Below, piece after piece: positions 5,596-12,564 of a stretch of DNA of 64,000 nt. The DNA lies in the NCBI GenBank assembly GCA_965232515.1, contig CBDDPY010000002.1, forward strand, positions 480,001 through 544,000. The letters run 5' to 3'. The DNA is from Alphaproteobacteria bacterium. GTDB taxonomy: Bacteria > Pseudomonadota > Alphaproteobacteria > GCA-2731375. The translations under genes were made by a program, and so were the position numbers. The notes beneath the pieces are model-generated. The model worked only from the letters and a program-made list of their open reading frames with translations. It did no database searches and had not been told where the DNA came from. The first letter of the stretch is position 1. Each line of letters opens with the position of its first letter.

Positions 5596-5623
5596 GGCCA
5601 CCTCTCACTCCCCGCCCTACCGG

Positions 5624-5689
5624 GTCATCCTGGCGCCGGCCAGGATCCATTGGGAATCAGCCGTTGATGCTGGCCGTCGCCAGCATGAC
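5624..5689. repeat. REP-like palindromic repeat, family B copy 1
   Basis: GTCATCCTGGCG..GCCAGGATCCA...GATGCTGGCC..CGCCAGCATGAC; near-identical copy at 42418-42485. Confidence 0.8.
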
Positions 5690-5797
5690 GGAAATGCGAG
5701 AGTAACTCTGGTGCGAGATGCACCCGACGATTTCCCTCTCCCCTCGCCAACGCGGACGGGTAGGGTGGAGTGCCGATTCCGAATACCGCGTTCCCGT

Positions 5798-5837
5798 GCC
5801 CGCCTGGCGGAATTGGTGGACGCAGGGGACCTTAAAA
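5798..5837 (+). other. tRNA-Leu(UAA)-like 5' half (acceptor 5' strand, D arm, anticodon loop) with no 3' half
   Basis: GCCCGCCTGGCGGAATTGGTGGACGCAGGGGACCTTAAAA aligns to 5896-5934; no T arm or CCA follows. Confidence 0.75.
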
Positions 5838-5895
5838 GGCTACAGCACCTGCTGCACTAACACGACATTGACCGTCACGACTTGCAACCGCGAAC

Positions 5896-5984
5896 GCCCA
5901 CTTGGCGGAATTGGCAGACGCAACGGGCTTAAAACCCGTAGGTCCGAAAGGACCGTCCCGGTTCGAGTCCGGGAGTGGGCACCA
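5896..5984 (+). tRNA. tRNA-Leu (anticodon TAA)
   Basis: Acceptor GCCCACT/AGTGGGC, anticodon stem ACGGG/CCCGT with loop CTTAAAA, variable arm GGTCC-GAAA-GGACC, T arm CCCGG-TTCGAGT-CCGGG, encoded ACCA end. Confidence 0.96.
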
Positions 5985-5993
5985 CAACGCGGT

Positions 5994-6056
5994 CGACCTG
6001 AAGGTTGGCTTTCGGCCGAATCTAACCATCGGGGTAACTCCGCCACGACTAGGTCG
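5994..6056 (+). ncRNA. Putative structured RNA (three-way junction) directly 3' of the tRNA
   Basis: CGACCTG(5994-6000) pairs with TAGGTCG(6050-6056); GGTTGG(6003-6008) pairs with CTAACC(6022-6027); GGG-GTAA-CTC GNRA hairpin (6031-6040). Folded by eye only. Confidence 0.4.
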
Positions 6057-6250
6057 CTTCAGTTGAAGTCGCTACTCCATAGTCCAAGTGATTCTCTGCA
6101 TCCTCTAGTCATTTTAGAATATACGGTGTTGAATGTGTCTTATGATTGAGTTAATATATCTCAAACCTACTTTTCTAAACTAGAATCGAATTCTGAAGGC
6201 GCTAACTTTGCTATTAATTGAGTGCAGTCCTTTCAACTAAGGAGGGTCGA

Positions 6251-6478
6251 ATGTCTCACAACGAGTATGAAGTCGAATTCACCGTCCGCGCTAGGGACGA
6301 GAGCGGAGAAATGAAGATGCTTGGTTGCGGATGCGGTTGTTCTCTTAACGGAAGTGTTTCTGTAACGAATACTAGGATCGTTGATATCAACCTTGAGGGT
6401 GGTGAGATACAAGTTATGCAATCATCCGTTGATAAGTATCTCAAAACCAAAAAGAAAAAAAATAAGAGAAGAAATTGA
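6251..6478 (+). CDS. 75-aa putative radical SAM substrate/RiPP precursor with GCGCGCS motif and basic tail
   Basis: Strong AAGGAGG RBS 5 nt before ATG 6251; stop overlaps the rSAM start (TTGA). Confidence 0.75.
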   Translation: MSHNEYEVEFTVRARDESGEMKMLGCGCGCSLNGSVSVTNTRIVDINLEGGEIQVMQSSVDKYLKTKKKKNKRRN

Positions 6479-7848
6479 CCAAGTTCCTTATTCGGAAGGA
6501 ACCATTTGGCGGTGTTGTTTGCAATACGTCGGACAACGACAATGTTCTGTTCGTAAACGCGAAAGCGTATAGCGTCATTAGCGCTATATCTGAACGGAAA
6601 ACCGATCCGGAGATAATTGCACAACTTCAGTCAGCATATGAGAGCTTGCCAGCTAGAAAGTGCCTTTCATTCATATCAAGATATCGCAGGTTGTTCACAG
6701 AACCAAGTGAATGGAATCTTTTTCTCGAGATTGGAGATGAGGACAGCGCGGTCAATTGCGACGCGAAGCGAGCGCCAGCACTGCACATGCCTCTTGATTT
6801 CTATTGGGAAACGACCAGGAAGTGTAATCTTCGTTGCTTGCACTGTTACAACAACTCAGGGCCCTCTGGCGCGCACCCCAACAAGCAACAAATCGAAAAG
6901 GTGTTCGAAGACCTTGATGGGGTATCCCTTCGGACTGTCACTATCTCCGGAGGAGAGGCCCTATTGCGAAAGGATATCCGCGAGATTGTTGAGCGTATGA
7001 GAAAGCAGACGTTCTGTCTCGTGTTGGGCACTAATGGAACGCTAATCAACGATCAAAATGCGGATTGGATAGCCGACAACTGTAACTATGTGAATCTTAG
7101 TCTAGATGCGCCATTCGCCAAAGAATACGACGCTTTTAGAGGAAAAACTGGCTCTTTTTTGGAATGTGAATCCGGTCTAAGGAAATTGCTTTGCCGCGAT
7201 GTTAACATAGTAGCTCAGACGACGATTTCGAAGTACAACATAAACTCTCTGGAAAAACTAGCAGATTTCCTACTTGACTGTGGAGTGTCTCAGTGGTCAT
7301 GTAGATTCCCGTTCTTTACTGGAAACATAAATAATAATAAAGATGTATTCTTGAATAAAAACGAGCAATTATTGTGCCAAAATATTATCGAAAGTGTGTA
7401 CGAAAAATACAAGGCTGAATTTGTTGACCTAGCTCTTGGTCTCAGCATTCCTTGGTCTTATGAAAAGCCGTATCAGAAATTGACCAATAAGAACCGGCAC
7501 GTCTCATGTGCTGCCGGCACTGTCTTGGCCGTACTCCATGCTGATGGAACTATGGCCCCGTGCCAACTTTTCTCTGAGACAGACAATAAGTCGGACCCAA
7601 TTTGGGAATCTAGCATTTACGATCAGTGGCATAATGCAAAATGCTTTGTAGATATGCGCAACATCGAGTTAAAGGAGTTATCGCCCTGTTGGACCTGCTC
7701 GAATGCCAATGCCGGTTGCGGAGGTGGCTGCCGAGCCAGAGCCTATATCAAAGATGGACATTTGTACGGGTCTGACTCTGAATGCGGCTATCGCCCAGAG
7801 AATGCGATCTCCAAAGACGATATTTGTGGACGGCCAGCAGAGCGCTGA
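6475..7848 (+). CDS. Radical SAM/SPASM peptide maturase with N-terminal RRE (PqqD-like) domain
   Basis: CNLRCLHC (CxxxCxxC), ISGGEALLR, GTNGTL, SLDA; SPASM CAAG...DGTMAPC...CWTC...CGGGCRARA...C; N-terminus LIRKEPFGG...VNAKAYSVI...EIIAQL resembles an RRE. Confidence 0.9.
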   Translation: MTKFLIRKEPFGGVVCNTSDNDNVLFVNAKAYSVISAISERKTDPEIIAQLQSAYESLPARKCLSFISRYRRLFTEPSEWNLFLEIGDEDSAVNCDAKRAPALHMPLDFYWETTRKCNLRCLHCYNNSGPSGAHPNKQQIEKVFEDLDGVSLRTVTISGGEALLRKDIREIVERMRKQTFCLVLGTNGTLINDQNADWIADNCNYVNLSLDAPFAKEYDAFRGKTGSFLECESGLRKLLCRDVNIVAQTTISKYNINSLEKLADFLLDCGVSQWSCRFPFFTGNINNNKDVFLNKNEQLLCQNIIESVYEKYKAEFVDLALGLSIPWSYEKPYQKLTNKNRHVSCAAGTVLAVLHADGTMAPCQLFSETDNKSDPIWESSIYDQWHNAKCFVDMRNIELKELSPCWTCSNANAGCGGGCRARAYIKDGHLYGSDSECGYRPENAISKDDICGRPAER

Positions 7849-7979
7849 GATCTTGACTCCGTGTTCGGCATGACGCTGCTCGCGTGGACATCCGCAAGGC
7901 AGAAACAGCTGGCTGAAGAGGAAGATCGCTCATGATCCGCGCCGAGCTCGAACAGAAGCGTTGGAGTCAGATTGAGTAT

Positions 7980-8140
7980 TGGGGTCTGCCTCGAAACTCA
8001 TGCTGGCCGGGCCAAGCGGCGGGTGAGCAGCACAGCGGAGGCGGCGTAGTGCAAAGCCTCGGCTGCGGCGATGGTGCCTTTGAACTGCTTCGCCTGACTT
8101 CGGTTGCAGTTGATCCCAGTGAAGAAGTGCTTGACCACCC
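7980..8140 (-). mobile_element. Degenerate IS5-family transposase C-terminal remnant with probable terminal sequence
   Basis: Minus strand WVVKHFFTGINCNRSQAKQFKGTIAAAEALHYAASAVLLTRRLARPA* resembles the IS5 C-terminus WVVERFFAWINRNRRLAKDFEATI...LLxRRLAR. Confidence 0.7.
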
Positions 8141-8408
8141 AGCAGGATGAAGACCGCGACGATGTCGATGCCAGTGGCGTCGTGCCGTATGGACAACGAT
8201 GTATGGTAGGCAATGGATCACGATTTCCCATGTGCCACGAACCTGCCCGGCCGACCGGCCTCTGGAAAACGCTCCAAGCGTTCAATCGAACGAAACACGC
8301 GTTCGGTGACTGAGCGCGCCGCATCGGGTTTCTTTCTGCGATGTAGTCGCGGATGTTGGCGAGGTCGCTGACCGCAGACAGCTGCCACCGAATTCGTACG
8401 CGGTCCAA
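8141..8408 (-). pseudogene. RelE/ParE family toxin, frameshifted
   Basis: RIRWQLSAVSDLANIRDYIAERNP, then other frames give DAARSVTERVFRSIERLERFPEAGRPG and IVIHCLPYIVVH; split across three frames. Confidence 0.75.
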
Positions 8409-8410
8409 TG

Positions 8411-8617
8411 CTAAAAGAACGCGCGAACGTCCGCGTGTGTCGCGTAGGCGGCTGGTTCATTGAGGCGGCGGTTGACCTCGGCGACCTGGTCGGGGCTGAG
8501 CTGGAAGCTCGTCGGATCCTGCTCGGCCAGGCTCATCAACAGATCGGCCGCTTCGTCCTGGCGATCTTCCGGCAGGGCGCGGATTTTGACAATCGCCTGC
8601 TCAAGTCGTTTAGTCAT
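8411..8617 (-). CDS. Putative antitoxin (addiction-module type), 68 aa
   Basis: MTKRLEQAIVKIRALPEDRQDEAADLL...LSPDQVAEVNRRL...ATHADVRAFF, immediately upstream of the ParE-like gene. Confidence 0.75.
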   Translation of the reverse strand: MTKRLEQAIVKIRALPEDRQDEAADLLMSLAEQDPTSFQLSPDQVAEVNRRLNEPAAYATHADVRAFF

Positions 8618-8673
8618 GCGGTGATTACAACGGTCAACCGGCTGGACGGCGAGGCGACAGACGAGCAAGCCGG

Positions 8674-10326: not shown

Positions 10327-10827
10327 TCAGCTCTCGACGGGCTCGGCGACGGCGCGGTCCTGCTCCCAGCCCTCGTGCTGCAGCACGATGCGCTCGATTG
10401 CGACCTCGTTGCCGTTCGCGTCCAGCTCGGGCAGGGCTTCGAACTCCGAAACCCAGGCACGGAAGATCATATAGCTCAGCACCACGTTGCCCTGCTGATT
10501 CAGGAGGTCGATACGCAGGTCCTTGCGGAAGTTTTTCAACGACATCGCCCCGTCCCCCTGCGGACTGTAGGCCAGCTCGGCCCAGTCGCGGAACGTCGTG
10601 TCGTGGGTGATGCCGCGCTCCAGCACGATGGGATCGAACGATGTCGCGCCCGGCGCCGTCAGCAGGTGGCTCGGCATGCGGCCGTCGCGGTGCAGCACCA
10701 CTTCCGTGCGCCGGCGCAGGCCGCCGATACGCGAGACGCCGGCGACGACATCGCCGTCCAGGATTAGCTGGAACTTGAAGCTCTTATAAGGATCGAGGCG
10801 ATGCGGGTTCGCGGGAAACGGGACCAT
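10327..10827 (-). CDS. Phage tail tube protein (T4 gp19-like, eCIS Afp1/5 type)
   Basis: DPYKSFKF, IVLERGIT, FRKDLRIDLLN, RAWVSEF..LPELDANGNEVAIE...LQHEGW. Confidence 0.9.
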   Translation of the reverse strand: MVPFPANPHRLDPYKSFKFQLILDGDVVAGVSRIGGLRRRTEVVLHRDGRMPSHLLTAPGATSFDPIVLERGITHDTTFRDWAELAYSPQGDGAMSLKNFRKDLRIDLLNQQGNVVLSYMIFRAWVSEFEALPELDANGNEVAIERIVLQHEGWEQDRAVAEPVES

Positions 10828-10862
10828 GAATATGCTCCATTCCTGTCGACGGCCGTGCGTCG

Positions 10863-12047
10863 TTAGTTGTGGCTGTCGGCGGTGCGCTGTTGAATACGTA
10901 GGATGACGAACTCGGCCGGCCGCACGGGCGCGAAGCCGACTGTGATGTTGACGAGACCCTGGTCGATGTCGGCCGCGGTGTGGGTGCCGCGGTCGCACCG
11001 GACGAAATAGGCGTCGCGGGGCGTGGCGCCCTGAAAGGCGCCGTTGCGGAAAAGCAAATGCAGGAACGAAGACACATTCAGCCGGATCTGGGCCCAGAGC
11101 GGTTCGCCGTTCGGCTCGAACACGGTCCATTGCACACCGGTCTCGATGCTGGCCTCGATAAACAGCGCCAGCCGCCGCACCGGCACGTAGCGCCACTCGG
11201 CGCCGCTGCCGGCAGGCTCCAGGCTGCGGGCGCCCCAGGCGACGATGCCGGCGCCCGGAAACGTCTTGATGACGTTGACCGAGCGATCGGTCAGACGCGC
11301 CAGATCGGCATCGCCGACGTCGGTCTCCAGGCCGCTGACACCGAATAATCCGGCGTCGACACCTGCCGGCGCTTTCCAGATACCGCGCTGTCTGTCGGTC
11401 CGGGCGTAGAGGCCGGCGATGCTGCCGCCCGGCGCGATCGCCCGGTCGCCGGTCCGTTTGCCGGGCGTCGTGGTCAGCAGCCGCGGAAAATACGTCGCGG
11501 CGTTGGCATGACGCAGTTTCGGGTTTGCCCGCAGCCAGGCCGTGACCGCCCGCGATGTGCGCCGGATTTTATCGCCATGCGGAATGTCATGCAGATAGAT
11601 CATGCGCCGCCGGTCCGCGTGGCCGACCGCGGCCGCGGCCACCTGGCCGGCTTCGGCGGCGGTCATGCGCGCCGTGTCGGGGGTCAGCAGCAGGTCCGCC
11701 GTGTCGGGCAGGGCGTGCAGCCCGGTCCCGCGATCTGCCCGGCCGATGATATCGCCGGCCCGGGCGGACGCACCCTTTCGACGTGAGTTCGACTTTGCAC
11801 GGACGATCCAGGCGCTCCGGCCGCCATTGGCGAAGAACTGCCGCACTGCCAGTGGAGCCTCCAGATCGCTGGAATCGGCGGCAAAGATCTCCGCCAGCTC
11901 GGCCGTCGAGGTGATTCGCACGACCTGGTCTACCGGACCCCGGGGAAAGGTCCCGACAATGGCGGCCACCCCGGTCTGCCGGCCGGCGATGGGCCGGATG
12001 CCCGGGGAAAGCTCTTGGACATAGACCTCCGCAGTCGTCAGCGTCAC
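10863..12047 (-). CDS. Contractile tail sheath protein (eCIS Afp2/3/4 type), compact 394 aa
   Basis: VYVQE, FFANGG, YFPRL, RGIWKAPAG, WGARSL, WRYVPVRRL, VFEPN..PLW, GFAPVRPAEFVILRI; GGAGG RBS before GTG 12047. Confidence 0.92.
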   Translation of the reverse strand: MTLTTAEVYVQELSPGIRPIAGRQTGVAAIVGTFPRGPVDQVVRITSTAELAEIFAADSSDLEAPLAVRQFFANGGRSAWIVRAKSNSRRKGASARAGDIIGRADRGTGLHALPDTADLLLTPDTARMTAAEAGQVAAAAVGHADRRRMIYLHDIPHGDKIRRTSRAVTAWLRANPKLRHANAATYFPRLLTTTPGKRTGDRAIAPGGSIAGLYARTDRQRGIWKAPAGVDAGLFGVSGLETDVGDADLARLTDRSVNVIKTFPGAGIVAWGARSLEPAGSGAEWRYVPVRRLALFIEASIETGVQWTVFEPNGEPLWAQIRLNVSSFLHLLFRNGAFQGATPRDAYFVRCDRGTHTAADIDQGLVNITVGFAPVRPAEFVILRIQQRTADSHN

Positions 12048-12564
12048 GAACGCTCCTCCCATGATCTCGGGCTGCGCCAAATGGTGGGACGACGCGGCCA
12101 TTGGGAAGATTTACCGGGGTCAAGCAAAGCTTCGAATGAACTGCTTCACATCCTCGACAAAGACCAGGCTAGTCATAGAGGACGCTGCCCGCCGACCAAG
12201 ATACGGGCAGGCGTGAACAGGTCGTGTGACCGGTTGACCCATGTAACGGGCAAGTCGAGCAAACCGGTCCGCGGTCGTGCAAGCGGATGTCGATTTGACG
12301 CTTCACGAGCCCCGATGCGCGGCATCGGTACGGCGTCACGACCCGACTTTGCGTTAACCAGTCTTTTACTCTTGTCCCTCAGTGTGGCGCGCGCGGGCTT
12401 GTGGATAACCCGTTTGACCAACGTTGAGGACTGCGAAGCAATTGTATCGGAACTGCCCGCTCCCTACGGATGACGTTCTCATTCTTGCTCAAAGCACATC
12501 CACTCAAAACCCTTACTCCACTCCAATCAACAACATCATCATCATCAGCACAGAGGTGTGAGAG

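What the first reader, a model, noticed from the sequence alone, without database searches (positions are those of the whole stretch)
6251..7848. Candidate new RiPP/peptide-modification system: GCGCGCS peptide plus RRE-radical SAM-SPASM enzyme
Seen: a 75-aa ORF with a strong RBS carries an acidic leader-like N-terminus (MSHNEYEVEFTVRARDESGEMKML) and all three of its Cys in GCGCGCS (6323-6343). Its stop overlaps the TTG start of a CxxxCxxC radical SAM enzyme with a full SPASM Cys set and an RRE-like N-terminus. Known: RRE-rSAM-SPASM enzymes (AlbA, CteB, PapB; related PqqE/MftC) modify the adjacent peptide, often forming Cys thioether crosslinks. Inference: the peptide does not resemble SCIFF, PqqA, MftA or subtilosin precursors that I recognise, and its core lies mid-peptide with a long follower, so it may define a new class.
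Basis: partly seen in the sequence, partly recalled or inferred. Interest (0 to 1): 0.85.

Follow-up and report, generated by a model that had tools for sequence, protein, structure and literature searches.

The report
Rare CxCxC peptide with radical-SAM maturase
A small, horizontally acquired two-gene cassette encodes a 75-residue peptide with three alternating cysteines and a radical-SAM enzyme that most likely staples it into a cross-linked hairpin; the pair belongs to a very rare, so far unnamed family of peptide natural-product genes.

Summary
A 75-aa ORF (6251-6478) has a strong ribosome-binding site, and all three of its Cys lie in GCGCGCS. Its stop overlaps the TTG start of a 457-aa radical SAM enzyme (6475-7848). 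That enzyme has CxxxCxxC, a complete SPASM cysteine set and an N-terminal RRE-like fold.

The pairing is conserved. All four loci of this enzyme family with readable upstream DNA carry a 59-75 aa ORF with the motif CxCxC-(2-4 residues)-x-V-[ST]-V. A profile search of 1.84 billion proteins found only seven such peptides. None of 158 unrelated rSAM loci has the motif.

Neither the enzyme nor the peptide reaches any Pfam or NCBIfam family-specific threshold. About 19 enzyme clusters exist in 5.8 billion.

The cassette lies in a low-GC islet at a disrupted tRNA-Leu. The islet is missing at the same site in a same-genus genome.

The closest precedent is StsA/StsB, where a CxCxCx4GxGxG core receives three hairpin sactionines. 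The window peptide reads CxCxCx4SxSxT. Four of six active-site-lining positions match the sactisynthases SkfB and StsB.

Most likely this is a new thioether-ladder RiPP family. The chemistry is inferred, not shown. I rate it a new variant of a known kind, of moderate to good interest.

The parts
5799..5837 (+). Remnant: 5' 39 nt of the ancestral tRNA-Leu, broken in the anticodon loop. This is the left edge of the islet.
   Evidence: Homology with the same-genus genome G001 (L167 1252-2294, 91% identity) runs to window 5837, which lies inside G001's tRNA-Leu at 2256-2342. The repeat finder family D1 also picks it up.
5896..5984 (+). Complete tRNA-Leu (anticodon taa) inside the islet. It is only 81% identical to the same-genus tRNA at the syntenic site.
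   Evidence: ARAGORN; Rfam tRNA 58.5 bits; blastn 80.9% identity to L167 2256-2342.
5838..8416 (.). Islet missing from the syntenic site of same-genus genome G001. Its core, about 6100-7750, has low GC (0.37-0.52, against 0.62-0.73 in the flanks).
   Evidence: In G001 the tRNA-Leu is followed after 64 nt by the homologue of window 8417-8535. Composition profile.
6240..6245 (+). Shine-Dalgarno AGGAGG, 5 nt upstream of the peptide ATG.
   Evidence: Read directly from the sequence.
6251..6478 (+). Precursor peptide gene (75 aa). It has an acidic N-terminal region, a CxCxC core, a V-S-V strand, a conserved follower (E-I-Q-V-M) and a Lys-rich tail not shared by relatives.
   Evidence: Homologous peptides lie beside homologous enzymes. 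Profile search; alignment A6.
6326..6340 (+). Codons for C26-G-C28-G-C30, the three invariant Cys proposed as thioether donors.
   Evidence: Invariant in 7 of 7 peptides.
6356..6364 (+). Codons for V36-S37-V38. Both Val are invariant and the middle residue is Ser or Thr in all seven peptides. This is the proposed acceptor strand.
   Evidence: Alignment A6.
6475..7848 (+). Radical SAM/SPASM peptide maturase (457 aa). Its TTG start overlaps the peptide stop.
6475..6744 (+). N-terminal RRE-like domain (residues 1 to about 90; three strands, then helices).
   Evidence: AF2 models. Foldseek top hits are TbiB1 and lasso B1 RREs, PqqD and SkfB. HMM alignment to SuiB starts at profile position 2 and to CteB at position 14.
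6823..6846 (+). C117-x3-C121-x2-C124, the radical SAM cluster motif, followed by the invariant Y125.
   Evidence: Sequence; invariant in 17 of 17 family members.
7507..7785 (+). SPASM region with C345, C363, (C390), C405, C408, C415, C419 and C437.
   Evidence: Invariant columns. Pfam SPASM 17.6 bits, below the 21.5 cut-off.
7967..8460 (-). Decayed ParE-like toxin gene with fragments in different frames, at the right side of the islet. It probably does not belong functionally to the cassette.
   Evidence: ParE_toxin profile positions 1-26 match one frame (15.2 bits) and positions 18-50 another (19 bits). Both scores are below the 23-bit cut-off.

Best explanation
This is a minimal two-gene RiPP cassette.

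The 75-aa product of 6251-6478 is the substrate of the RRE-fused radical SAM/SPASM enzyme encoded at 6475-7848. The two genes are translationally coupled in the window.

Inferred mechanism:
1. The N-terminal RRE domain docks a conserved flanking strand of the peptide. This is either the N-terminal Y-T/E-V...R.D segment or the C-terminal [DE]-I-x-V-[LIM] segment.
2. The SAM cluster (C117/C121/C124) generates a 5'-deoxyadenosyl radical.
3. That radical abstracts hydrogen from a residue of the x-V-[ST]-V-x strand.
4. A Cys thiolate of the CxCxC strand, held at an auxiliary SPASM cluster, closes a thioether.
5. Three rounds give a three-rung beta-hairpin ladder (expected -6 Da, no free thiols).

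This is analogous to StsB acting on StsA (Cys2-Gly15, Cys4-Gly13, Cys6-Gly11). Sulfur-to-alpha-carbon (sactionine) links are favoured over beta/gamma (ranthionine) links.

Shown here: the genes, the cofactor motifs, the folds, the conserved pairing, the invariant residues, the rarity and the horizontal acquisition.

Inferred: that the peptide is the substrate, that the bonds are thioethers, their register and the carbon attacked, and the fate and function of the product.
For: **Conserved pairing**
- Small ORFs with the motif lie upstream, on the same strand, in 4 of 4 family loci with upstream DNA. These are the window, L082 (4-nt gap), L083 (325-nt gap) and L164 (181-nt gap).
- These loci cover three enzyme clades.
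- A profile search of 1,835,955,588 representative proteins gave 12 hits at E<=0.001. Seven are 56-75 aa peptides with the motif.
- C26, C28, C30, V36 and V38 are invariant in the seven.
- The motif is absent from 158 non-family rSAM records.
- Flanking genes differ between loci, so the conserved unit is the pair.
- Each of the two genomes holds one precursor copy.

**Enzyme**
- It has CxxxCxxC and the SPASM cysteines.
- The full-length AF2 model has pLDDT 82.0. Its best PDB matches are RiPP maturases: SkfB 6efn (E 3.5e-16), SuiB 5v1t (1.1e-14) and CteB 5why (2.7e-14).
- The N-terminal domain has an RRE fold.

**Precedent**
- StsA's core CxCxCx4GxGxG receives three hairpin sactionines (PMC10288494, sections 6 and 8 read).
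- The window peptide has the same spacing, CxCxCx4SxSxT.

**Active-site-lining positions**
The six positions are those defined in PMC10288494, sections 7 and 9.

| Enzyme | Residues at the six positions | Source |
|---|---|---|
| Window enzyme | Y,S,G,S,Q,L | |
| Family | Y,[ST],[AGSN],S,x,[LI] | |
| SkfB | Y,T,F,S,Q,L | my reading |
| StsB | Y,T,I,S,K,L | paper |
| CteB | F,F,T,S,H,Q | and paper |
| SuiB | F,L,T,S,I,A | |
| PqqE | S,S,I,S,H,A | |
Against: - No experiment exists.
- By NCBIfam score the enzyme is nearer to non-thioether models than to thioether maturases. NirJ2 scores 147.1 bits, WgkB 137.5 and ScmE 132. StsB scores 79.8, PapB 77.5 and AlbA 67.9. All are far below their cut-offs, so the family is roughly equidistant from everything known.
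- The hairpin register is ambiguous. In the Ser/Thr register one peptide (P0131) has Pro and Val at two acceptor positions. In the Val register the third acceptor varies (Y/V/N).
- The six-position comparison rests on only two sactisynthases and on HMM alignments rather than structural superposition.
- No protease, transporter or immunity gene is conserved beside the pair.
- Context was seen for only four loci. Two enzyme clades (P0003/4/7 and P0005-10) have no verified peptide.
- L081, a member of the P0005-10 clade, has an enzyme gene lacking the RRE part and has no peptide ORF.
Confidence: 0.58

Rival explanations
1. The pair is a RiPP precursor and maturase, but the radical chemistry targets the invariant V-[ST]-V rather than making Cys thioethers. 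Candidates are Val/Ser epimerisation (YydG/EpeE type), Val cyclopropanation (TvgB/TigE type), or a C-C or ether cross-link. The Cys would then serve as metal ligands or disulfides.
For: - The two Val and the Ser/Thr between them are as invariant as the Cys.
- YydG (41.3 bits) and TigE (33.8 bits) appear among the PDB sequence matches, and TigE is Foldseek rank 12.
- The best NCBIfam scores are to non-thioether enzymes.
- TigB carries a TIGSVS repeat (PMC10878394, abstract read).
Against: - The GYW motif, said to be unique to all cyclopropyl synthases (PMC10878394, abstract), is present in only 1 of 17 family enzymes.
- Three invariant, alternately spaced Cys directly before the strand are the hallmark of thioether precursors, as in StsA.
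- Positions 1, 2, 4 and 6 of the active-site lining resemble SkfB and StsB, not SuiB or PqqE.
Confidence: 0.22
2. The thioethers are ranthionines (S to beta or gamma carbon of Ser/Thr/Val), as made by CteB, PapB or CrpC, rather than sactionines. This is a sub-variant of the best explanation.
For: - Thr is the acceptor type in CteB's substrate (recalled, not from a call).
- CteB is among the top structural matches.
- CrpC installs ranthionines on a larger Cys-rich protein (PMC13692751, abstract and section 12 read).
Against: - Only 1 of the 6 active-site-lining positions matches CteB, against 4-5 for SkfB and StsB (PMC10288494 sections 7 and 9).
- PapB scores 77.5 bits against a 340 cut-off.
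- No C-x-x-D/N/Q motif is conserved in the peptides.
Confidence: 0.15
3. The small ORF is not a substrate. The enzyme acts on a non-peptide substrate (NirJ/AhbD-like tetrapyrrole chemistry), and the peptide is an accessory Fe-S or regulatory protein, or is not expressed.
For: - The best NCBIfam scores are NirJ2 (147.1 bits) and AhbD (118.3 bits).
- One source names a homologue 'AdoMet-dependent heme synthase'.
- No consensus promoter or terminator was found.
Against: - Those scores are far below the cut-offs of 500.
- In the loci recovered by the generic scan, the distant rSAM relatives (many matched from residue ~103-111 on) show no counterpart of the N-terminal domain, whereas this family has a fused RRE-like domain.
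- The peptide co-occurs with the enzyme across three clades and about 35% enzyme identity, and its Cys and Val are invariant.
- The peptide has a strong RBS and its stop overlaps the enzyme's start.
- No heme d1 or siroheme genes lie in the islet.
Confidence: 0.05

Closest known systems
StsA/StsB (and BlaA/BlaB) hairpin sactipeptides of Streptomyces and Bacillus (PMC10288494)
   Same: - The core begins with CxCxC, followed by a short loop and an alternating acceptor strand.
- The window peptide has the same spacing as StsA (CxCxCx4-x-x-x).
- The enzyme is rSAM/SPASM, with Y, T/S, S and L at four of the six active-site-lining positions.
- Three cross-links are expected.
   Different: - The acceptor strand is x-V-[ST]-V-x rather than GxGxG.
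- The loop is 2 residues in five of the seven peptides.
- The RRE is fused here, whereas it is the separate protein StsC in the Sts system.
- The enzyme scores 79.8 bits on the StsB model against a 625 cut-off.
- The hosts are Alphaproteobacteria-type genomes.
- A conserved follower of about 20-35 residues is present.
SkfA/SkfB (sporulation killing factor sactisynthase, PDB 6efn)
   Same: - It is the best PDB match by sequence (90.2 bits) and by fold (E 3.5e-16).
- Five of the six active-site-lining positions are identical or similar to the window enzyme: Y, T~S, S, Q, L.
- It has an N-terminal RRE.
   Different: - SkfB has a twitch domain rather than a full SPASM domain, makes one Cys-Met sactionine, and its operon holds export, immunity and processing genes (recalled knowledge).
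- Identity is only about 18%.
CteA/CteB (SCIFF) and PapA/PapB ranthipeptide systems
   Same: Both have the RRE + rSAM + SPASM architecture, a Cys-rich precursor and a compact gene pair. CteB is a top structural match.
   Different: - The peptide gives no hit to any NCBIfam or Pfam model.
- PapB scores 77.5 bits against a 340 cut-off.
- Only 1 of the 6 lining positions matches CteB.
MftA/MftC (mycofactocin) and PqqA/PqqE
   Same: Both are rSAM/SPASM enzymes acting on a small peptide, and their products are intracellular cofactors made without a dedicated exporter. Val is a reaction site in MftA.
   Different: - MftC scores 95 bits against 265 and PqqE 82.6 against 381.35.
- The window peptide has no C-terminal Val-Tyr and no Glu/Tyr pair.
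- No downstream pathway genes are present.
CrpA/CrpC (TIGR04463) protein thioether system of methanogens (PMC13692751)
   Same: An RRE + rSAM + SPASM enzyme modifies an adjacent Cys-rich gene product whose N-terminal region acts like a leader. It raises the idea of a cross-linked small protein rather than a cleaved peptide.
   Different: CrpA is large and carries ten 17-residue repeats with C-x-x-Q/D motifs. TIGR04463 is not among the 25 best NCBIfam models listed (81 families matched; the rest were not shown).

Membership tests
RRE-dependent radical SAM/SPASM RiPP maturase with adjacent precursor (general kind) | CxxxCxxC SAM-cluster motif | tested here: met
   C117, C121 and C124 are invariant in 17 of 17. 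Pfam Radical_SAM scores 68.1 bits against a 29.5 cut-off.
RRE-dependent radical SAM/SPASM RiPP maturase with adjacent precursor (general kind) | SPASM auxiliary-cluster cysteines (Cx9-15Gx4C ... CxxCx5-6CxxxC ... C) | tested here: met
   C345-x12-G-x4-C363, C405xxC408x6C415xxxC419 and C437 are invariant, and C390 is present in 16 of 17. The Pfam SPASM HMM itself is below its cut-off (17.6 against 21.5).
RRE-dependent radical SAM/SPASM RiPP maturase with adjacent precursor (general kind) | RiPP recognition element (PqqD-like winged helix: three strands plus three helices) | tested here: met
   - The secondary structure is E4-9, E12-17, E23-28, H29-39, H44-54, H60-75.
- The domain-only Foldseek top six are TbiB1 and lasso B1 RREs (E 0.018-0.13, TMq 0.53-0.63), with PqqD at rank 8. 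No hit reaches E<=0.001.
- Pfam PqqD is not detected.
- The HMM alignment reaches the N-terminal parts of SuiB and CteB.
RRE-dependent radical SAM/SPASM RiPP maturase with adjacent precursor (general kind) | Conserved small precursor gene next to the enzyme | tested here: met
   Found in 4 of 4 loci with upstream DNA and in 0 of 158 non-family rSAM records.
RRE-dependent radical SAM/SPASM RiPP maturase with adjacent precursor (general kind) | Enzyme-dependent modification of the peptide | not testable with these tools
   This needs co-expression and mass spectrometry.
Sactipeptides (sactisynthase plus precursor) | Cys sulfur to alpha-carbon thioether | not testable with these tools
   This needs MS/MS, desulfurisation labelling or NMR.
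Sactipeptides (sactisynthase plus precursor) | Catalytic-site-proximity profile of hairpin sactisynthases (Precord et al. 2023) | tested here: inconclusive
   The window enzyme reads Y,S,G,S,Q,L, against SkfB Y,T,F,S,Q,L and StsB Y,T,I,S,K,L. The outgroups are CteB F,F,T,S,H,Q, SuiB F,L,T,S,I,A and PqqE S,S,I,S,H,A (paper sections 7 and 9). Only two sactisynthases could be compared. The paper's full matrix is in supplements that were closed.
StsB family (NCBIfam NF045574) | HMM score of at least 625 bits | tested here: not met
   79.8 bits.
StsA-type precursor | CxCxCx4GxGxG core | tested here: not met
   CxCxC is present in 7 of 7 peptides, but the GxGxG strand is replaced by x-V-[ST]-V-x.
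PapB ranthipeptide maturase (NF047865), AlbA (NF012164) | HMM cut-offs of 340 and 850 bits | tested here: not met
   77.5 and 67.9 bits.
Mycofactocin maturase MftC (TIGR03962), PqqE (TIGR02109) | HMM cut-offs of 265 and 381.35 bits; precursor with C-terminal Val-Tyr (MftA) | tested here: not met
   95 and 82.6 bits. The window peptide ends in a Lys/Arg-rich tail.
NirJ2 / AhbD heme-pathway rSAM (TIGR04055, TIGR04545) | HMM cut-off of 500 bits | tested here: not met
   147.1 and 118.3 bits, both matching residues 111-441 only, so the N-terminal domain has no counterpart in these models.
Radical SAM cyclopropyl synthases (TvgB/TigE) | Gly-Tyr-Trp motif supplying a Tyr ligand to auxiliary cluster I | tested here: not met
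   GYW is present in 1 of 17 family sequences, and I did not check whether that one lies at the equivalent position. The motif is as stated in the abstract of PMC10878394.

The most novel reading that the evidence does not exclude
The product may not be a leader-cleaved antibiotic. It could be a new kind of radical-SAM-stapled mini-protein or cofactor.

In this reading the whole 56-75 aa chain folds as a small sheet. The strands would be the N-terminal Y-T-V strand, the CxCxC strand, the V-[ST]-V strand and the C-terminal [DE]-I-x-V-L strand. The sheet would be locked by cross-links to the invariant valines, a Cys-Val linkage that I do not recall for any sactipeptide and did not search for. 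The product would act inside the cell, for example in metal binding or redox chemistry.

This would explain why both flanks are conserved and why no protease, exporter or immunity gene travels with the pair.
Probability: 0.15. Interest if true: 0.8.

Novelty: new variant of a known kind. Interest (0 to 1): 0.58.

Why it matters
Radical-SAM thioether peptides (sactipeptides and ranthipeptides) are a source of narrow-spectrum antibiotics and of unusual enzyme chemistry. As far as I recall, the characterised hairpin sactipeptides come almost entirely from Firmicutes and Actinobacteria.

This finding gives a compact, testable two-gene system from Alphaproteobacteria-type genomes. Both its enzyme and its precursor are unnamed. 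The three donor Cys and a V-[ST]-V strand are invariant across about 35% enzyme identity.

It would extend the CxCxC ladder topology of StsA to non-glycine acceptors. It would also provide a test of whether active-site-lining residues predict sactionine chemistry in an enzyme that whole-sequence methods cannot place.

The family is very rare: about 19 enzyme clusters in 5.8 billion, and 7 peptides in 1.84 billion representatives. The cassette is mobile, sitting in a tRNA islet that a same-genus genome lacks. This makes it a clean case of a laterally moving minimal RiPP module.

Tried and rejected
- **Complex prediction.** Complex prediction of enzyme plus peptide returned no verdict (score 0.01). 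It is not used as evidence either way.
- **Expression.** No RNA holder was listed. Two RNA runs with the same species label laid 0 reads on 5700-8300, which the tool marks as 'no test'. The DNA runs X1 and X3 only confirm that the stretch exists.
- **Word-index peptide searches.** These found only the input peptides.
- **ESM Atlas.** There was no usable hit for the peptide and only generic rSAM/SPASM clusters for the enzyme.
- **Whole-genome searches** at family-level scores:

| Group searched | Genomes with a match |
|---|---|
| Relatives | 1 of 41 (own only) |
| Own order | own only of 33; G002's 158-bit match with a TAG is not family level |
| Class sample | 1 of 401 (own) |
| Family of G430 | 1 of 401 (G663) |
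| Genus of G663 | 1 of 17 |
| Order of G430 | 0 of 401 |
| Phylum sample | 1 of 401 (own) |

- **Plasmids.** tblastn against plasmids gave no match at E<=1e-30.
- **att-type repeat.** No direct repeat of at least 14 nt flanks the islet.
- **Promoter and terminator scan.** 0 sites were found.
- **Closed supplements.** The supplements of PMC10288494 (precursor networks, groups A and B, six new predicted sactipeptide groups, full proximity matrix) could not be read. They may already contain this family.
- **Literature.** Searches for 'radical SAM'+RiPP+CxCxC, sactisynthase from 2023, 'radical SAM'/'precursor peptide'/'three cysteines'/thioether, Rhodoplanes+'radical SAM'+RiPP and StsB+sactipeptide found no description of this family in the searchable library.
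- **Not inspected.** The five long repetitive proteins among the 12 profile hits were not inspected.
Full report
**Observation**

- An ORF at 6251-6478 encodes 75 residues and is preceded by AGGAGG (6240-6245), 5 nt before the ATG.
- Its only three Cys are C26, C28 and C30, in G-C-G-C-G-C-S (codons 6323-6343).
- The first 24 residues are net acidic.
- The stop TGA (6476-6478) overlaps the TTG (6475-6477) that opens a 457-aa ORF ending at 7848. That TTG start is right, because the N-terminus aligns residue for residue with 16 homologues.
- The enzyme has C117-x3-C121-x2-C124. Pfam gives Radical_SAM 68.1 bits and Fer4_12 36 bits. The SPASM model scores only 17.6 bits against a cut-off of 21.5.
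- The SPASM cysteines are nevertheless all present and invariant in 17 of 17 family members: C345-x12-G-x4-C363, C405-xx-C408-x6-C415-xxx-C419 and C437. C390 is present in 16 of 17.

**The enzyme family**

No family-specific NCBIfam model comes near its cut-off.

| NCBIfam model | Score (bits) | Cut-off (bits) |
|---|---|---|
| NirJ2 | 147.1 | 500 |
| WgkB | 137.5 | 650 |
| ScmE | 132 | 400 |
| MftC | 95 | 265 |
| PqqE | 82.6 | 381.35 |
| StsB | 79.8 | 625 |
| PapB | 77.5 | 340 |
| AlbA | 67.9 | 850 |

A search of 5.8 billion protein clusters gave 552 hits at E<=0.001. Only 19 of them (P0002-P0020) are full-family relatives, at 31-62% identity with E-values from 1e-193 to 1e-56. The next hit drops to 25% identity and 2.7e-39. 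Where sources name these proteins, they say only 'radical SAM protein' (Rhodoplanes, a Pseudolabrys MAG), 'radical SAM protein with 4Fe4S-binding SPASM domain' or 'AdoMet-dependent heme synthase'.

An AlphaFold2 model built on the 17-sequence alignment has pLDDT 82.0 and pTM 0.84. Its best PDB matches are the RiPP maturases SkfB (6efn, E 3.5e-16), SuiB (5v1t, 1.1e-14) and CteB (5why, 2.7e-14), aligned over 423-477 columns.

**The RRE**

Residues 4-86 form three strands followed by helices in both the full-length and the domain-only model.
- Foldseek with the 100-residue domain alone gave no hit at E<=0.001.
- Its six best hits are all leader-binding RRE proteins: TbiB1 (5v1u, 5v1v) and lasso B1 (6jx3), with E 0.018-0.13 and TMq 0.53-0.63. 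PqqD is at rank 8 and SkfB at rank 10.
- The family HMM also aligns to SuiB from profile position 2 and to CteB from position 14.
- Pfam PqqD is not detected.

I take the RRE fold as met, with moderate statistical strength.

**Is the peptide conserved?**

Two metagenome loci and one genome locus encode family enzymes with upstream DNA. Each has a small same-strand ORF just upstream.
- L082 1272-1460 contains C-A-C-G-C-S-G-S-V-S-V-T.
- L083 1011-1199 contains C-S-C-S-C-S-A-S-V-T-V-Y.
- L164 3020-3199(-) contains C-Q-C-S-C-A-N-T-V-T-V-Y.

With the window, that makes 4 of 4. The enzymes belong to three clades: the window/P0002 clade, the P0017/18 clade and the P0012-16 clade.

Word-index searches found nothing beyond the inputs. 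A profile of the four peptides, scored against all 1,835,955,588 representative proteins, gave 12 hits at E<=0.001. Seven of them are 56-75 aa peptides: the four inputs plus P0127, P0129 and P0131. The other five hits are long repetitive proteins that I did not inspect.

In the seven-peptide alignment C26, C28, C30, V36 and V38 are invariant. The residue between the valines is always Ser or Thr. The loop between the last Cys and that strand is 2 residues in five peptides and 4 in two. An N-terminal Y-[TE]-V...R.D segment and a C-terminal [DE]-I-x-[VIM]-[ILM] segment recur. The Lys-rich tail is peculiar to the window peptide.

As a control, I scanned 166 held records (1.26 Mb, 9,362 ORFs of 30-130 aa).
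- CxCxC alone occurs in 42 ORFs.
- The full motif occurs in 7 ORFs. All 7 are in the four family loci, counted with their duplicate records.
- None is in the 158 non-family rSAM records.

Each of the two genomes has a single precursor copy.

**Context**

Flanking genes differ between loci. In G663 they are an RsmE-type methyltransferase and a UbiA prenyltransferase. In the window they are a tRNA and an alpha/beta hydrolase. The conserved unit is therefore the pair. No protease, transporter or immunity gene travels with it.

In the window the pair sits in a low-GC stretch, 0.37-0.52 against 0.62-0.73 in the flanks. G663 shows a milder dip, 0.59-0.67 against 0.70-0.78.

The same-genus genome G001 matches the window at 91% identity up to 5837. 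That position lies inside G001's tRNA-Leu(taa). After 64 nt, G001 continues with the homologue of window 8417-8535. The window therefore keeps the 5' 39 nt of the ancestral tRNA (5799-5837). About 2.6 kb (5838-8416) is absent from G001 at this site. This stretch holds a second, complete tRNA-Leu(taa) that is only 81% identical (5896-5984), the cassette, and a decayed ParE-like gene. No att-type direct repeat was found.

The enzyme family was not found in the other genomes searched.
- 40 relatives
- 32 other genomes of the order
- 400 of the class
- 400 of the phylum
- 401 of another order
- 400 others of the family of G430
- 16 others of G663's genus

This patchy, rare distribution fits lateral transfer of a minimal module.

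**Mechanism**

The closest precedent in the literature I could search is StsA/StsB (PMC10288494; I read sections 6-10).
- StsA's core is CxCxCx4GxGxG.
- StsB, an rSAM/SPASM enzyme that whole-sequence methods place with MftC, makes three nested sactionines: Cys2-Gly15, Cys4-Gly13 and Cys6-Gly11. The evidence was -6 Da, no alkylatable thiol, and deuterium at the six residues after desulfurisation.

The window peptide reads CxCxCx4SxSxT, which is the same spacing. The five short-loop relatives fit a tighter two-residue turn.

Two registers are possible.
- The Cys may face the hydroxyl residues ([ST], [ST], [TY]). This register is broken in P0131, which has Pro and Val there.
- The Cys may face the two invariant Val plus a variable third residue (Y/V/N).

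That paper defines six active-site-lining positions. I mapped them through the HMM alignments and the family alignment.

| Enzyme | Six positions |
|---|---|
| Window enzyme | Y125, S158, G185, S209, Q364, L365 |
| Family | Y, [ST], [AGSN], S, x, [LI] |
| SkfB (sactisynthase) | Y, T, F, S, Q, L |
| StsB (paper, section 9) | Y, T, I, S, K, L |
| CteB | F, F, T, S, H, Q |
| SuiB | F, L, T, S, I, A |
| PqqE | S, S, I, S, H, A |

This favours sactionine chemistry. It rests on two comparators, and the paper's full matrix is in supplements I could not open.

I therefore propose RRE-guided, radical-SAM-initiated formation of three Cys thioethers that lock a beta-hairpin. All steps beyond the gene, motif and fold evidence are inferred.

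**Rivals**

- The invariant V-[ST]-V could itself be the target, through epimerisation as by YydG/EpeE, or cyclopropanation as by TvgB/TigE. The GYW motif, stated to be unique to cyclopropyl synthases (PMC10878394, abstract), is in only 1 of 17 family enzymes. Three invariant alternating Cys also argue for thioethers.
- Ranthionine rather than sactionine links remain possible. CrpC is a recent example on a larger protein (PMC13692751, abstract and sections 8 and 12 read).
- A non-peptide, NirJ-like function is unlikely, given the fused RRE-like domain and the co-conserved peptide.

**Novelty and limits**

Neither gene is covered by a Pfam or NCBIfam family-specific model. Five literature searches found no description of this family. 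The supplementary datasets of PMC10288494 may already list it.

It is best seen as a new family, and probably a new variant, within the radical-SAM thioether peptides. Its distinguishing features are:
- a non-glycine acceptor strand;
- a mid-peptide core with conserved flanks on both sides;
- a fused RRE;
- a two-gene module in Alphaproteobacteria-type genomes.

Weak points are as follows.
- Context was seen for only four loci.
- Two enzyme clades have no verified peptide.
- One locus (L081) has an RRE-less enzyme gene and no peptide ORF.
- There are no expression data.
- There is no chemistry.

Noticed in passing
window 5799-5837 and 5896-5984: The ancestral tRNA-Leu(taa) appears to be broken in its anticodon loop, and only its 5' 39 nt remain. 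A second, complete tRNA-Leu(taa), 81% identical to the same-genus copy, lies 58 nt downstream inside the islet. The 3' half of the old tRNA and the 64 nt that follow it in G001 were not found in the window.
   Followed up: partly
window 7967-8620 (- strand): There is a ParE-like toxin gene split over at least two frames, with weak Pfam matches below cut-off. Next to it is a small 'Unstab_antitox'-like ORF (8411-8620), whose region is conserved in G001 at 86% identity. A 78%-identical copy of window 7984-8141 lies elsewhere in the genome (G000:C2:1510873-1511030).
   Followed up: partly
window 5623-5690: A short element of about 68 nt just upstream of the tRNA recurs at many places in the genome, in both orientations, at 74-97% identity. 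It is also present in G001. It looks like a dispersed REP- or MITE-like repeat.
   Followed up: no
window 10327-12101 (- strand): These are contractile-tail genes: a T4 gp19-type tail tube protein (113 bits) and a tail sheath protein (Phage_sheath_1C, 36.5 bits). They may be the start of a prophage or of an extracellular contractile injection system cluster.
   Followed up: partly
L081 1-1478: A family enzyme of the P0006-P0010 clade (about 74% identity) starts at the residue equivalent to 105. It therefore lacks the RRE part. No peptide ORF is present, and it lies directly after an HU-like gene and tRNA-Asp and tRNA-Val. It may be a truncated remnant, again beside tRNA genes.
   Followed up: partly
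L163 (G002:C234:17685-18845): A same-family genome holds a more distant rSAM/SPASM relative (158 bits, profile positions 54-438) that is interrupted by one TAG. No CxCxC...V[ST]V ORF was found in that locus.
   Followed up: no
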